The notes under the pieces were generated by a model that was given only the letters and a program-made list of their open reading frames with translations, had not been told where the DNA came from and did no database searches. A program made the translations under genes and the position numbers. From contig NC_092679.1 of the NCBI RefSeq assembly GCF_964355755.1, positions 11,887,432 through 11,951,431 on the forward strand: a DNA stretch of 64,000 nucleotides. The letters run 5' to 3'. Origin of the DNA: Antedon mediterranea (Eukaryota; Animalia; Echinodermata). This document shows positions 40,850 through 64,000 of the stretch, in pieces; the stretch's first letter is position 1, and each line of letters begins with the position of its first letter.

Positions 40850-43465
40850 TTAGAAAAGAAAGGTGAGGTGGTGGAATTGGCATCTTTATATCTAAACGTT
40901 TATCGGTTATTTCTGACAACATCTTAGAATCTATTAATGATGACCTAGAGAGACGTTGGGTCAAAATTTAAAATGATAATAGCAAACCAATATATATATT
41001 TGTGTGACTTATTTTCCTGTACAAGAAGTTATATAATGAACTAACCAATGAACTTTATACCCAATTATTTACCCGAAATTATTAGAATAGAAAATGATGA
41101 AGATGATACTAATATTGTACTGATGAGGGATTTCAATGCAAGAATTGGAAATGTAATACTATGGTGATCCCATAAAAAAACTCAAATGGTAATAGGTTAT
41201 TTAATTTTAGGAGCAACGCTAATCTTACAATTTTAAACGCCACTATCTTGTGAGAGTAAGTTGTACATGCAATCAACAGAGCACAATAGATTATTTACTG
41301 TGCTCTAAAGGGTTGATTAACCACATACAATCAGTTTTAATTGATAAAAAGGGAGAGTTTAATTTTGGTAGTGATCAAAATCTTATGTTGTTAACCCTTG
41401 ACATAGCTTTGAATAAACACACCATTTCACCAATTAAACCAATAGTTATTTGGGACATTAAGAACAATCAAGATTTCACTTTATACCAAAAGAAACTTGA
41501 AGAAAAAGTTAATGGTTGGAATGCTAATGATTCAATTTGGGAATCCTAGAAAAATATCATTATAGAATCAGCAAAAGAAGGAATAGGAATTACCAGAGTA
41601 CTAAATTGCAAATAAAAACCGTGGTTTGATAAAGAAGTAGACTTTGCCATAAAAGAAAGAAAATCCGCTTCACGCCACCATCGTCAATGGGTTCATTTAA
41701 ATAGAAAAAAATAATGATAATACAGTATAGATAATAGCAACACTAACAACAACAATAATAAAAATGATATTGATACTGCTGATTTATGGAGTTTATATAT
41801 TTGGAAAAACGGCATAAAGTTGAAACGCTTATTAAAAATAAAATAACAGAAAAAATGATTAATGGTTCAAGAGAAATAGCTAATAAAGGAGGTCCTTCCT
41901 GTAACGATTTCTAGAAAAAACTTCAAAGGCAACACGGATTTTGATTGCATCCAAGTTCCTGATTCTGAAGATAACCTTTGCATTAGGTCGTTGGGAAAAT
42001 TTAGGTAAAGATAATATGAATTTGAATGATTGTAATGGTTTTCTAACTGATCGCCTAGTTAGAAAAATTAGAGATAACCTTTCTTACGATGTTCATTCTG
42101 ATAATAATGGAGAATTCCTAAATGATATTGCTATTGATTTTGATATTGTTAAAGATGCAATAACTCTTGCAAAGAATAACAAAGCCTATGGTTGGGACAA
42201 TATTACATTATTAAAAATGAAGGAATATATATTATTAAATCATTACTTGGCCTTTTCAACAAAATTATTAAATTGGAAGAAATCCAGAAGGACTGGAATA
42301 GTTCCATTATTATTCATATTCATTAGAAAGGTAGCCGTAGAATTTTGGACAACTATAGAGAAATATCATTAACTTCATGTGTTCTAAGATCTTTAATAGA
42401 ATTGTGTCATTTAACATTTCAAACTTGAAAATGTTGATACTTTTTCCGCGGTCCCAGGAAGGCTTTCGCGCAACATAGATGTGAAGACCATATTTTTACT
42501 CTTAAGAGTATTGCTGCTTGCAGACTTGAAGAAAATAAACACACCTATAATATGGAATTCCTGGACTTCCGTAAAACATTCGATGTGTCTGGCGAAAAGG
42601 CTTACTTAGGCCTAAAGCCGTTTGGTCATCAGGTATTAGGGGTAAAATTTGGCGATTGATCGATAAACTTTATGAAGATGTTAAAGGTTCTGTAAGATTT
42701 GGAGATATGGACACAGAATTCTTCAATATTCAACAGGGAGTAAAGCAAGGCTGTGTACTTTCTCCAATCCTATTTAACATTTTCATAAATGAATTTAAAA
42801 TGCTAGTAATAGTATCAAACAATGTTGGTATCAAAATAAATAACACGTTGATAGGTGGGTTATTCTGGGCAGACGATGTTGTATTAGTTGACAATAACGA
42901 ACATGAATTTTCAAAAATACTTGATCTTGCAACATTATTTGCACAAAAAAACGGAAGTTACATTTTTACTATGATAAATCCAATGTTCTTGTTTTTGGGA
43001 AAAGAATTGACAGCCATAAACAATGGAAGCTAGGGGATAGATTTATTGTTGAAGCAGAGACTTACAAATACCTTGGTGTCCATATTTCTAGCTAAATGAC
43101 AATGTAAGCACCAAAATGTAATTACAAAATGCAATAGGTCTATAGCTTATATCAAATTGTTAATTGACAATTGCAATAATTTTAACAGAGTATTTTTTGA
43201 GATATATTATGGAGGACAATCGGTCTACCTGCAATTAATTACGAATCAGCTGTTTGGTGTTCGTTAAATAAAGTTGATATTGATAAAATAGAAAACTTCA
43301 ATTGCAAATAGCTAGATATATTCTTAAGGCGTCTAGAAACACGCCGCGTGCAATCTTATTTTTGGTGAATTGGGTTGGTTCCCAATAAATGTCACACAGG
43401 ATAGTTTATTTTAATCCGATTGTACACATGGAATCACATCGTTGGCCAAATGTTTTGCTTAATGC
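40850..43465 (+). mobile_element. Decayed non-LTR retrotransposon ORF2 (AP endonuclease + RT)
   Basis: GGGIGIFI, DFNARIG, STIDY, GSDQN, QEGFR, GVKQGCVLSPILFN, WADD, YKYLG and GELGW motifs across frameshifts and stops. Confidence 0.9.
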
Positions 43466-47407: not shown

Positions 47408-48454
47408 ATAACCATGAACATGGATGATAAATGTGGTACTTACAGTATACAGTATGTAGTTAATTAAAATGTTATATGTTACTATACATTAATCAATTGC
47501 AGATATGTTGTCTTTTTTATTAGCTCAGAATGTCACTAATATTGCAACAAACATCTGTGACAGTATTTAGGCCTAATTTTTATTGGCCTATATTTTTATC
47601 ATTGGTTATCGTTTAGGCAATTTTGTTTTTCTTGTAGTTTTATTGTCTCTTTTTTTATTGTCTTAATTATGCCAAGTAAAATGAATTTCCATTTTAAGTG
47701 GACCAATGAAATTTCTTGAATGAATTTTGACAATAATTTTATGCCATTTTTTACTCACTCACATGAATCGTGTTGAAAAAAAAAAATCCAAATTACAAAC
47801 CCCACAGTTAAACACGTTTGAACCAACATTTAGTTTTCTTCATTAATTTATTACAGATATTACTGTATCTGCCATTACTTGATATCATCATATTATTGTT
47901 ATTCTAACATTCATTTATTAATCATACTATATAACTATATCATTATATATAAAACAAAATATAATTCTTTATCTTACATTTACAATTTGAATGTGATATT
48001 GATTGACATCTAGAAGAAAAAGATGGAGACCTAATTAGAACCAATTTCTGAAAAAAGACCTATATAATACCAAACTCTCGCCATTTATTAGTATACAGGC
48101 GCTGGGAGGGGGGGGGGGGCTGCAACCGAGCTTGGACGTGTATTAGTAGGACTCACCTACAGTACTGTAGGCTTAGACCACTAACCCAGCTTTTAGATTT
48201 AAGAAATAAAAACATGAAGGATCAGATGAATTGAATACCAATGTACACAGTTATCGGCTAGACTTGTTTGTACATAGCCGTAGGATCAGCAGGATGTACA
48301 GTAGGATAGGCTAGCCTAGGCCTACTACTCCCTTAGGACAACTACCACCTAGTACAACTACCCCTAGTACAACTACCCCCTAGGACAACTACCCCATAGG
48401 ACAACTACCACCTGGACCACTATCCTCTAGGACAACTATGTTGTATAGTAAAAT

Positions 48455-49293
48455 ATCACTGGATACATTACTGGCAATGATGAAACAAGCTATAGACAAC
48501 TAGGATGTGATTTTTATCACTGGTGCTGCAATAACAACCTGAAACTAAACATAAAGAAAACAAAAGAAATGCAAATTGATTTTAGGAAAATTAAAGAACC
48601 CTTAGAACCTCTGATTATAAATGAAAATGAGATTGAAGTAGTAAATGAGTACAAATATCTGGGTTGTATAATTGACAATAAGCTAAATTGGATAAATAAT
48701 GTAAATAAAGCCACATGCAAAGCCAACCAAAGGATGTTTATTTTAAGAAAAATGAAGTACCTACAAATTGACAAAACTATACTTAAATTGTTTTATAACT
48801 CTGTAATTCTCAGTGTAATACTTTTTTGTAATGTTTGTTTTTATGGTAATACAATGCAAAAAGATAAAATTAAACTTAATCGAATAGGAAATAGAGCAAT
48901 TAGACTAGTAGGAGAGCACTTACCTGATGTTGAATCCTTGTATAAAGAAAATGTGTTAAAAAAAGTAAAAAGTATCATTGATGATGAAACACATCCTCTT
49001 CACAAACAATTTGCTCTCATGAATTCTGGCATAAGACTACGTGCACTTAATACCAAAACAAAACGGTTTAGGTGCTCGTTTGTACCTAATGCTATACACT
49101 TATATAACTCCAGAGTACAAAGGTAAAATGTAACCGATAATTTTTTATCTAATTTTAACAATTTTTAGCCTCTTAACTTTTTGTGTGTGTTTTTGTAAAT
49201 TGTATTTTATATTTTTGTATTTTGCCAGTTTTCAAATCACATTTCTGTTTTTAAATGGACAATAAAGTATATATGACTATGACTATGACTATG
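48455..49293 (+). mobile_element. 5'-truncated Rex1/Babar-like LINE 3' end
   Basis: Open RT C-terminus (KTKEMQIDFRK, YKYLG, QRMFILRK, HPL, SFVPNAI); (GACTAT)n tail; inserted in ggacaactacc repeats. Confidence 0.9.
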
Positions 49294-61570: not shown

Positions 61571-61925
61571 AAAACACTATCGTAAACATATAAAAAATAT
61601 ACAAAATATATTAGCAGTATATACAGTTATAACAAATTACATTTTCAATCTATCGTTTAATATTTGTGTTATATAATGGTAAGAATTTAGAACAAATGAC
61701 TTTCGAAGACGATCATGATCTCCTCTTAATGGATGTTTGGCTACTATGTATTACATTGCTATTTCTTCTCTAGGCCACTTACTCGCTTTTTACATTTTGT
61801 GATGTTTTTTTTTTTATAGATATTAATGTCTTCTGGAAAACCAATTACATGATATACTAAGCTTCTAAAGGAAGGGAAGTTGACACACCTGGAAATTTAC
61901 CACAGAAAGAACTTTACTATCAATC

Positions 61926-63803
61926 ATGAGCTTCCAAGCGCCATATGCAATAATGCATTTCTTAGTCATTCTAACAACTCATCTTATTCTTGTGGCAACT
62001 CTGGAGGCTGATATAGCCAAAAGGAAACCAAATATTGTTATTTTATTAGCAGATGACATTGGCTATGGTGATGTCGGTTGCTTTGGTAATACAAGCCTTA
62101 ATACACCGCATATTGACAGTCTAGCTAGAGATGGAGCGAAGCTTACACATCATTTAGTAACACCATTGTGCTCTCCAAGTCGAGCAGGTTTATTGACTGG
62201 CAGATATCCGATACGTTCAGGTTTGAATTATTATTTTATTTATAAATATTACTCTATAATTTGATTATTTCTGGCCGTACTAGTTCAAGTGAAAATATTG
62301 ACTGATAATAATAAACTGTGTCCATAAAGGCAATACCATATTGAAATACCGGTTTTCATTAGATCACTGAAGTTAGGCCCGCTTCATAAAGGTCTTCAAA
62401 ATAAATTCATTAATACTATGAAAATCAAAAACATATTATATTATAAGAACTAAGACCGTCAACTAGCTGATTCCAGCGGGGAAGGCAGAAAAAGGCTTTC
62501 TATAAAAAATAATGTTTTTTTGTGAACATGTACTTTTTGATAAATTATACTGTAGTTTTTTTTAAACATTTGTTTTATTCAACTCCATTATTTTACATTC
62601 TTACATTGATGTGCTCAATATTCTGGAATGCAATGCAAATATAGTGGTTTGTTGGTATATATGTTGAATCCTTGTATAAAGAAAATGTGTTAAAAAAAGT
62701 AAAAAGTATCATTGATGATGAATTCTGGCATAAGACTACGTGCACTTAATACCAAAACAAAACGGTTTAGGTGCTCGTTTGTACCTAATGCTATACACTT
62801 ATATAACTCCAGAGTACAAAGGTAAAATGTAACCGATAATTTTTATCTAATTTTAACAATTTTTAGCCTCTTAACTTTTTGTGTGTGTTTTTGTAAATTG
62901 TATTTTATATTTTTGTATTTTGCCAGTTTTCAAATCACATTTCTGTTTTTTAAATGGACAATAAAGTATATATGACTATATGACTATGACTATGACTATA
63001 TGATTAGCATAGTTGCATCCATATTGTATAGTCATCATGATAACTAGCTTATTGAGCTGTGATTGCGTTGATATTTATCCTACTTCTTAAAGATGTATTG
63101 TCCCCCTGAAATTTTTTTTTTGTGTGAAATGTGCCAATGCCATTTTTAATGTTAAATTTTCACTTGGACCAAAAATTGGATTGGAAAATTTTTTTTTATT
63201 ATAACTCAATTTCAAAGCAAAGATAGTCAAATTGTCTGACAATGGGTTTTTGGTTAAATTTAACTATTTCTAACAATTATTCGTGTTTTTGGGGACAATA
63301 ATATTTAACTGATATTATGTTTATGATTAAAATGCATTCACAAAACTACACGTTTCAGAAAATTATCTACAGCATAGAGGTCACTCCTATGGTGTCTATA
63401 CAGTAGTTGACTATATATAATATTGTTTTCATCCTTAACATCTTTGAATTTTATGTTGGTGTGATATACATACACAGGGATGGTAGCTTACAGTATTATA
63501 CGTGTAGTGTCGTTCGTGTCAGCCAAAGCTGGCTTACCAGCCAATGAAACAACCATTGCAGAATTGGCACAGAGCATGTCATATAATACTGCCTTGATTG
63601 GTAAGTAGTTCGACACACATTCATTGTGTTTAAGTTTTGTTTGACGTGTCTTTCAGTTTTACTCTTACTCTTATTTTCAGGCATGGCATCATTAAATATG
63701 TTGAGGATAGTACCTTTCCTTAGTAGTGATTCAGGGCTACCGCCCAATGAAAGTACTCTTGCCGAGTTATCTTTAACCGCAGGCTATAATACTGGTTTGA
63801 TTG
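61926..63803 (+). CDS. Steryl-sulfatase/arylsulfatase-family protein (STS/ARSD-H-like), 3'-incomplete
   Basis: Signal peptide, [17 protein letters not shown], formylglycine motif [18 protein letters not shown]. First coding exon 61926-62220 (acceptor at 61819, phase-1 donor 62221). Next exon is 63478-63600 or 63681-63803. Confidence 0.92.
62320..62377 (+). pseudogene. 5S rRNA-derived 5' fragment (pseudogene or SINE3 head)
   Basis: ggcaataccatattgaaataccggttttcattagatcactgaagtta resembles the 5' half of animal 5S rRNA as recalled (GGCCATACCAC.TTGAA..CACCG.TTCTCGTCCGATCACCGAAGTTAA). Confidence 0.55.
62662..63000 (+). mobile_element. Short 3' copy of the same Rex1/Babar-like LINE
   Basis: Near-identical to 48929-49293, including the (GACTAT)n tail. 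Confidence 0.9.
63478..63600 (+). CDS. Sulfatase alternative exon A
   Basis: cag|[42 protein letters not shown]|gtaagt, 123 nt, phase 1-1. Confidence 0.85.
63681..63803 (+). CDS. Sulfatase alternative exon B
   Basis: ttttcag|[42 protein letters not shown]|gtgagt, 123 nt, phase 1-1. Confidence 0.88.
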
Positions 63804-64000
63804 GTGAGTGGTGATGGTAATTATCATTGCTGGGCCTGCCATATGCTGTTTTTCATAACGTAACGCTTCAATTAGCATGCTTTTGTCTAATTTTTTCATT
63901 TCTGATTTTTTATTTCATAGTTTATATTGCGATTTAATAGATTATCACATGATTTTCATTTAATTTGGTGTTTTTTTCTATACAAATATTAATCAAATCA

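What the first reader, a model, noticed from the sequence alone, without database searches (positions are those of the whole stretch)
63478..63803. Tandemly duplicated, probably mutually exclusive exon in a steryl/aryl-sulfatase
Seen: two 123-nt phase 1-1 exons, both with canonical splice sites and open frames, encode the same segment (21/42 aa identical). The scaffold GLP.NE.T.AEL...YNT.LIG is kept, while the N-terminal third diverges ([16 protein letters not shown] vs [16 protein letters not shown]). Only 80 nt separate them, and a candidate branch point (TTGAC, A at 63644) lies ~44 nt from the upstream donor. Known: this segment directly follows the CxPSR formylglycine motif and is single-copy in human STS. 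Short donor-to-branch spacing enforces mutual exclusion in alpha-tropomyosin. Inference: splicing swaps a loop near the active site, giving sulfatase isoforms with different substrate preference from one gene. More copies may lie beyond the window.
Basis: partly seen in the sequence, partly recalled or inferred. Interest (0 to 1): 0.8.

Follow-up and report, generated by a model that had tools for sequence, protein, structure and literature searches.

The report
Feather-star sulfatase swaps pocket exon
A feather star's steroid-sulfatase-like gene carries two old, intact copies of one exon that RNA joins to the upstream exon as alternatives, so it likely makes two enzymes whose predicted substrate pockets differ; this is an apparently undescribed case of a well-known kind of splicing, and any difference in substrate is untested.

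Summary
The gene is a steryl-sulfatase-like gene of the feather star Antedon mediterranea. RefSeq already lists two 604-aa isoforms that differ only at the 21 residues separating exon A (63478-63600) from exon B (63681-63803). One public run shows the upstream exon joined to A and to B, and lists no A-to-B joint. Both copies are under purifying selection (pS 0.73, pN 0.34). The duplication predates the split from Anneissia, whose annotated protein is B-type. The exon holds the positions matching four steroid-contacting residues of human STS (Arg98, Thr99, Val101, Leu103), and all four differ between A and B. Three of those changes are conservative, and no activity is known. The proposed steric lock is weak: other branch-point candidates lie 61 and 67 nt from the donor, and the same motif scan flags an ordinary-looking neighbouring intron. 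B joined to the next exon rests only on a gene model. An unnamed 12.8-kb contig probably carries a similar pair; shared or independent origin is unresolved. Verdict: a real, likely mutually exclusive exon pair of the coq-2/OGDH kind, new for sulfatases as far as searched.

The parts
61820..62220 (+). Shared exon with ATG (61926), predicted signal/anchor helix, metal ligands Asp43/Asp44 and the CSPSR motif; donor GTTTGA
   Evidence: record 1; 100% to XP_071963008.1
62169..62171 (+). Cys82 codon (TGC), the formylglycine precursor, matching human STS residue 75
62221..63477 (+). Intron to exon A (1257 nt); holds a high-copy repeat at about 62600-63300
   Evidence: joints; depth table
63478..63600 (+). 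Exon A, residues 99-140 of isoform X1; acceptor with a poor pyrimidine tract, donor GTAAGT
63601..63680 (+). 80-nt intron between the copies; candidate branch adenines at 63644 (+44), 63661 (+61), 63667 (+67); CAG at 63654-63656; retention gives a stop at 63606-63608
   Evidence: unspliced contig 63572-63705
63681..63803 (+). Exon B, residues 99-140 of isoform X2; strong pyrimidine tract, donor GTGAGT; its Met is the start of RefSeq isoform X3
63804..64000 (+). Start of the downstream intron; the next exon (KWHLG..., Lys141/His143) lies beyond the window

Best explanation
An old tandem duplication gave this crinoid steryl-sulfatase-like gene two versions of one 41-codon exon; RNA joins the upstream exon to either copy, likely never to both, giving two same-length enzymes predicted to share all catalytic residues but to differ in one wall of the substrate pocket, and so likely in which sulfate esters they prefer. 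Shown: the two copies, both upstream joints, purifying selection on both, and the mapping of the variable loop onto STS residues 98-103. Modelled only: B joined to the next exon (RefSeq X2) and the STS fold of both isoforms. Inferred: strict exclusivity (about 0.85) and a substrate or rate difference (about 0.55). Exclusion cannot come from a frameshift, since both exons are 123 nt. It most likely comes from inefficient splicing of the very short 80-nt intron plus competition between a weak A acceptor and a strong B acceptor; retention of that intron ends in a stop two codons after A. A true steric block at the +44 branch point is possible (about 0.3).
For: Joints 62220>63478 and 62220>63681, both GT..AG, in run X1; no 63600>63681 joint among its 2 listed joints. 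XP_071963008.1 and XP_071963009.1 are both 604 aa and differ at 21 positions, all in 101-137; no 645-aa form among the 3 cluster members. A vs B: pS 0.73, pN 0.34; A keeps 9 and B 10 of 10 family-conserved residues, reached in 0 of 100,000 neutral simulations in each direction. Anneissia is 32/42 identical to B, 21/42 to A, 452/501 outside the exon; NMLRIVPF is unchanged between the two B-type loops; a recent A+B pair is rejected (AU p 0.02). STS steroid-contacting Arg98, Thr99, Val101, Leu103 (PMC7241464, passage) align without gaps to positions 105, 106, 108, 110, which read I,I,V,S in A and M,L,I,P in B. Both models match human STS best (TM 0.83). The exon ends in core strand 135-141, so two copies in one chain would likely not fold.
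Against: RNA evidence is one run of contigs; the joints have only 24-26 nt on the short side, and the run may have fed the RefSeq models. In that run the contig over B continues unbroken into the next intron (63676-64000), so B-to-next-exon was not seen. Three of the four pocket changes are conservative, and all four differing is expected with p 0.27 given 12 of 16 loop changes; this loop varies across the whole family. A has Ser133 where 27 of 27 aligned relatives with a residue there and 108 of 118 hits have Gly. No A-type copy from a second crinoid was seen.
Confidence: 0.55

Rival explanations
1. Both exons are used alternatively but the enzymes are nearly equivalent. The pair is kept for tissue- or stage-specific control, stability or trafficking, and the loop differs because it is the freest part of the exon.
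For: The loop is the least conserved part of the exon across 28 relatives; most pocket changes are I/M, I/L, V/I; residues 129-133, outside the mapped pocket positions, also differ 5 of 5.
Against: The B loop core NMLRIVPF is identical in Antedon and Anneissia while A shares S110 with sea urchins and SAKAGLP with sea stars, so each version seems held in place; Ser/Pro at 110 and Lys/Asp at 115 are not conservative.
Confidence: 0.27
2. Only one isoform matters in Antedon. The other is a minor or decaying form, or serves as an off switch through intron retention (stop after A, or the catalytically dead X3 form).
For: B-to-next-exon joint not seen and unspliced contigs span both the A-B intron and the B donor; X3 lacks Cys82 and the metal ligands; A has the odd Gly133Ser.
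Against: Both frames are intact despite near-saturated synonymous divergence; B is the form annotated in Anneissia; unspliced contigs of similar depth also cover the first intron (62192-62486), which points to general pre-mRNA or DNA background; the one variant seen in A is synonymous.
Confidence: 0.12
3. For the exclusion mechanism only: the first reader's steric lock, in which branching at A63644, 44 nt from the A donor, stops U1 and U2 from assembling together.
For: TTGAC is the only yURAy match in the intron; 44 nt is under the roughly 50-nt threshold (PMC5740500 and PMC7969005, passages); 80 nt is shorter than all 23 clean predicted introns of the neighbouring gene (88-508 nt); frameshift and U12 locks are excluded.
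Against: yUnAy matches also lie at +61 and +67, and +61 is 19 nt from the acceptor; a CAG ends 12 nt after TTGAC, at the edge of the 8-12 nt limit beyond which an AG is taken as acceptor; the same scan puts the only motif of an 88-nt neighbouring intron at +31; the threshold comes from vertebrates.
Confidence: 0.3
4. The two exons belong to separate genes, or are routinely included together.
For: Joint inclusion would stay in frame (both 123 nt); absence in contigs is not proof of absence.
Against: Both join the same upstream donor; X1 and X2 share all other 583 residues; no second copy of the upstream exon in the window.
Confidence: 0.04

Closest known systems
coq-2 exons 6a/6e of nematodes, other helminths, annelids and molluscs (PMC7434440; abstract and section 6 read)
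   Same: Two homologous internal exons, used one at a time, change residues next to the substrate in an enzyme core.
   Different: There the substrate switch is shown genetically and rests on two invariant changes across many species; here no activity is known and only one species is shown to hold both exons.
Vertebrate OGDH exons 4a/4b (PMC7969005; passages), and the steric class of human MXEs (57 clusters, 9%; PMC5740500, passages)
   Same: Duplicated exon pair in an enzyme with a short intervening intron and a candidate branch point under 50 nt from the donor.
   Different: OGDH branch points are mapped and followed by a long AG-free pyrimidine tract; here the branch point is a motif guess with an AG 12 nt downstream and alternatives further on.
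Human steroid sulfatase STS (PDB 8eg3, 1p49; sulfatase subfamily S1_3 per PMC5066984, passage) and its paralogues ARSD/F/H/L
   Same: Best sequence and fold match (E 3e-172, TM 0.83); 8 of 9 listed catalytic residues identical; the same loop differs among the vertebrate paralogues.
   Different: Vertebrates vary the loop through whole-gene copies; the feather star does it inside one gene. That human STS has one copy of the exon is recalled, not tested here.
RefSeq models XP_071963008.1, XP_071963009.1, XP_071963010.1
   Same: They are this gene; X1 and X2 are the A and B isoforms.
   Different: Automated models only, with no statement on mechanism, age or function.

Membership tests
Tandem-duplicated mutually exclusive exons | Adjacent homologous exons of equal length and phase | tested here: met
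Tandem-duplicated mutually exclusive exons | Each exon is spliced to the same upstream exon | tested here: met
   one run; RefSeq X1/X2
Tandem-duplicated mutually exclusive exons | Each exon is spliced to the same downstream exon | tested here: inconclusive
   In RefSeq models for both; in run X1 the A contig ends at 63601 as a branch would give, the B contig runs on into the intron; the next exon is outside the window
Tandem-duplicated mutually exclusive exons | Never included together | tested here: inconclusive
   No A-B joint among 2 listed joints, no 645-aa form among 3 members; contigs cannot show absence
Tandem-duplicated mutually exclusive exons | Both copies under purifying selection | tested here: met
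   pS 0.73 vs pN 0.34; 0 of 100,000 neutral simulations; A has one odd change, Gly133Ser
Sterically locked MXEs (alpha-tropomyosin/OGDH type) | Used branch point under about 50 nt from the upstream donor | tested here: inconclusive
   Candidates at +44, +61, +67; motif scan unreliable on neighbouring introns; needs lariat mapping
Frameshift/NMD-enforced MXEs | Joint inclusion shifts the frame | tested here: not met
   Both exons 123 nt
U2/U12-incompatibility MXEs | A minor-type splice site on one side of the pair | tested here: not met
   Donors read GTTTGA, GTAAGT, GTGAGT; none fits the U12 donor consensus (recalled)
Docking-site/selector MXEs | Conserved competing RNA pairings in flanking introns | tested here: inconclusive
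   47 inverted pairs, the 25 shown all AT-rich and imperfect; A-B intron region folds no better than shuffles, z -0.47; no orthologous introns to test conservation
Steryl-sulfatase subfamily (S1_3) | CxPxR motif and catalytic/metal residues | tested here: met
   C82, D43, D44, R86, K141, H143, H293, D345, K371 match; STS Gln343 is Asn346; all lie outside the swapped exon
Steryl-sulfatase subfamily (S1_3) | STS fold with a two-helix hydrophobic stalk | tested here: met
   Predicted helices 190-210 and 216-238; top Foldseek hits 8eg3 and 1p49 for both isoforms; models, not structures
Steryl-sulfatase subfamily (S1_3) | Hydrolyses steroid 3-sulfates | not testable with these tools
   Needs an assay

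The most novel reading that the evidence does not exclude
The exon pair is an old echinoderm switch, shared with the animal behind the unnamed 12,841-nt contig (P0292 A-like, P0302 B-like at positions 108 and 114, and nearly so at 112), and it toggles one sulfatase between steroid sulfates and the flat sulfated polyketide pigments that crinoids use as feeding deterrents, so splicing would tune chemical defence or steroid signalling by tissue.
Probability: 0.1. Interest if true: 0.72.

Novelty: new member of a known kind. Interest (0 to 1): 0.42.

Why it matters
Sulfatase specificity is hard to predict from sequence (PMC5066984, start of abstract). Two natural isoforms that share 583 of 604 residues and differ in a loop that touches the steroid in human STS are a ready-made test of whether that loop sets specificity in the STS/ARSD/F/H/L group. 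It would also add sulfatases to the short list of enzymes whose pocket is rebuilt by exon choice. In crinoids sulfation can decide whether a pigment deters fish (PMC10887160, passage), which gives candidate substrates, but that link is speculation. The splicing type itself is common and the two isoforms are already in RefSeq, so surprise is moderate.

Tried and rejected
No whole genome is held for this window, so the downstream exon and any further copies could not be read. Contig depths (10.2 for the A joint, 4.7 for the B joint) were not used as an isoform ratio. The A joint is absent from runs X2-X4 of one sample; the B joint was examined in X1 only. Search for short proteins (23-74 aa) with the A+B alignment: no candidate. 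Among 118 representative hits none exceeds 26/42 identity to A or B, so no second crinoid copy surfaced, but clustering at 50% could hide it. The two single-exon ORFs of the window are not in the protein collection. Metagenome scan: 37 loci, all with continuous sulfatase frames across this segment and no repeated exon. Other multi-isoform clusters checked in 7 pairwise alignments (Mytilus 5, Ornithodoros 2) plus one Patella pair: none differs only in this exon. Rate asymmetry (B faster than A) is a trend only: Tajima p 0.06-0.37 with seven sea-star and urchin-like outgroups. A TAL-repeat hit is a summed-repeat artefact. No complex prediction was run. Earlier-finding look-up by sequence gave two unrelated bacterial notes.

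Full report
Observation. No third copy and no second upstream exon lie in the window; only 197 nt downstream are visible and no genome is held.

Identity. The upstream coding stretch 61926-62219 is 100% identical to steryl-sulfatase-like isoform X1 of the feather star Antedon mediterranea. Its cluster has 3 members. X1 and X2 are both 604 aa and differ at exactly 21 positions, all within residues 101-137: X1 uses A, X2 uses B. X3 (505 aa) starts at the Met in B and lacks the catalytic cysteine. So an automated annotation already holds the either/or pair; I could not see its RNA support. Both isoforms are predicted to fold like human steroid sulfatase (mean pLDDT 87, TM 0.83 to 8eg3). Eight of nine listed catalytic residues are identical, Gln343 reads Asn, and all lie outside the swapped exon.

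Splicing evidence. Of 5 runs listed, 4 were laid and X1 again alone. X1 lists 2 joints, 62220>63478 and 62220>63681, both GT..AG, and none from A to B. The A joint is absent from X2-X4, one sample with continuous intron cover. Limits: one run, contigs rather than reads, 24-26 nt on the short side of each joint, possible overlap with the data behind RefSeq. The A contig stops at 63601, as a branch to the next exon would make it. The B contig runs on unbroken to 64000, so B-to-next-exon was not seen. Unspliced contigs also cover the A-B intron and part of the first intron at similar depth, which suggests pre-mRNA or DNA background. Retaining the 80-nt intron gives a stop two codons after A; X3 may reflect such a transcript (inference).

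Selection and age. Over 40 codons A and B differ at 0.73 of synonymous and 0.34 of replacement sites (corrected 2.7, near saturation, and 0.45). A keeps 9 and B 10 of 10 family-conserved residues; 0 of 100,000 simulations with the same 52 random changes did so in either direction, under a uniform mutation model. The one variant seen in A is synonymous. Against A, Ser133 replaces a Gly found in 27 of 27 aligned relatives with a residue there and 108 of 118 hits. The Anneissia japonica orthologue is 452/501 identical outside the exon, 32/42 to B and 21/42 to A. In a 20-sequence, 42-column tree rooted on Callorhinchus, B and Anneissia group with support 100, A joins sea stars and urchins weakly (53), and a recent A+B pair is rejected (AU p 0.02, 5000 resamplings, which the program calls few). 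The other rows of alignment A2 and most of the 118 hits were left out of the tree. So the duplication predates the Antedon-Anneissia split; whether Anneissia still has A is unknown (its cluster has 1 member). The annotated sea-star and sea-urchin proteins seen show one version each. The exon boundary looks old: in 92 of 118 hits similarity stops at the Gly that ends the exon, as expected for single-exon ORFs from genomic contigs.

A possible second pair. P0292 and P0302, two single-exon ORFs, each come from one ENA contig of 12,841 nt, probably the same one. They split like A and B at positions 108 and 114 (and 112 is I vs L against V vs L) but are closer to each other (26/35) than to A or B (20-24/35). 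Shared and independent origin both survive the AU test (p 0.40 vs 0.30 and 0.21). They could also be exons of two neighbouring genes; the contig could not be read.

What the swap changes. Human STS residues Arg98, Thr99, Val101 and Leu103 are 4 of 12 listed as surrounding the steroid core (PMC7241464, passage; docking contacts with the same residues in PMC13468570, passages). They align without gaps to positions 105, 106, 108, 110, which are I, I, V, S in A and M, L, I, P in B; Lys115 becomes Asp and the net charge of residues 101-116 falls from +2 to 0. This fits a changed pocket but does not prove one: three changes are conservative, the loop is the most variable part of the exon in the family, and four of four differing has p 0.27 within the loop. 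In favour, the B loop core NMLRIVPF is unchanged in Anneissia. I could not measure distances in the models.

How exclusion might work. A frameshift lock and a U12 lock are excluded (U12 consensus recalled). No striking RNA structure was found. For the steric lock: TTGAC at +44 is the only yURAy match, under the roughly 50-nt threshold (PMC5740500, PMC7969005, passages), and 80 nt is shorter than the 23 clean predicted introns among 25 gaps of the neighbouring HYR gene (88-508 nt). Against it: yUnAy matches at +61 and +67, a CAG 12 nt after TTGAC, and a control in which the same scan finds the only motif of an 88-nt neighbouring intron at +31 (those introns are predicted, not shown to be constitutive). 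I put the strict steric lock at 0.3 and prefer poor splicing of a near-minimal intron with acceptor competition.

What is known. The closest working analogue is coq-2 exons 6a/6e, where exon choice changes substrate (PMC7434440, abstract and section 6); for the lock, OGDH 4a/4b. No paper on a sulfatase with mutually exclusive exons appeared in the listings (20 of 49 listed; 2 of 2; 2 of 2) or (10 of 11), judged by title and start of abstract; subscription journals are mostly absent and no supplements were read. PMC13079724 (passages) gave no divergence date. The scan has no earlier sulfatase case and several other duplicated-exon notes in this genome, none checked by me.

Verdict. Real and very likely mutually exclusive; a new member of a known kind. 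Functional difference about even odds, lock unproven. Interest 0.42.

Noticed in passing
window 170-30032, minus strand: A large gene of one-HYR-domain-per-exon repeats (14 of 14 tested ORFs hit Pfam HYR), with exons that look like C-type lectin domains by eye and a block of four HYR exons repeated nearly unchanged about three times between 6149 and 11749.
   Followed up: partly
proteins P0292 and P0302 (ENA contig of 12,841 nt): Probably a second animal with two copies of this same sulfatase exon on one contig; origin unresolved.
   Followed up: partly
window 63654-63680: A CAG 24 nt upstream of the B acceptor would add 8 hydrophobic residues in frame with no stop if used; no joint to it was listed.
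   Followed up: partly
window 62600-63300: High-copy repeat sequence inside the first sulfatase intron (summed contig depth up to thousands of times the flanks).
   Followed up: no
window 41905-43033 and 48452-49126, plus strand: ORF fragments that look by eye like LINE reverse transcriptase; not scanned.
   Followed up: no
proteins P0137 and P0076 (Mytilus californianus isoforms X1, X2): Two 568-aa isoforms differ only at 26 positions in 457-559, which suggests alternative last exons or a merged tandem gene model in another STS-like locus.
   Followed up: no
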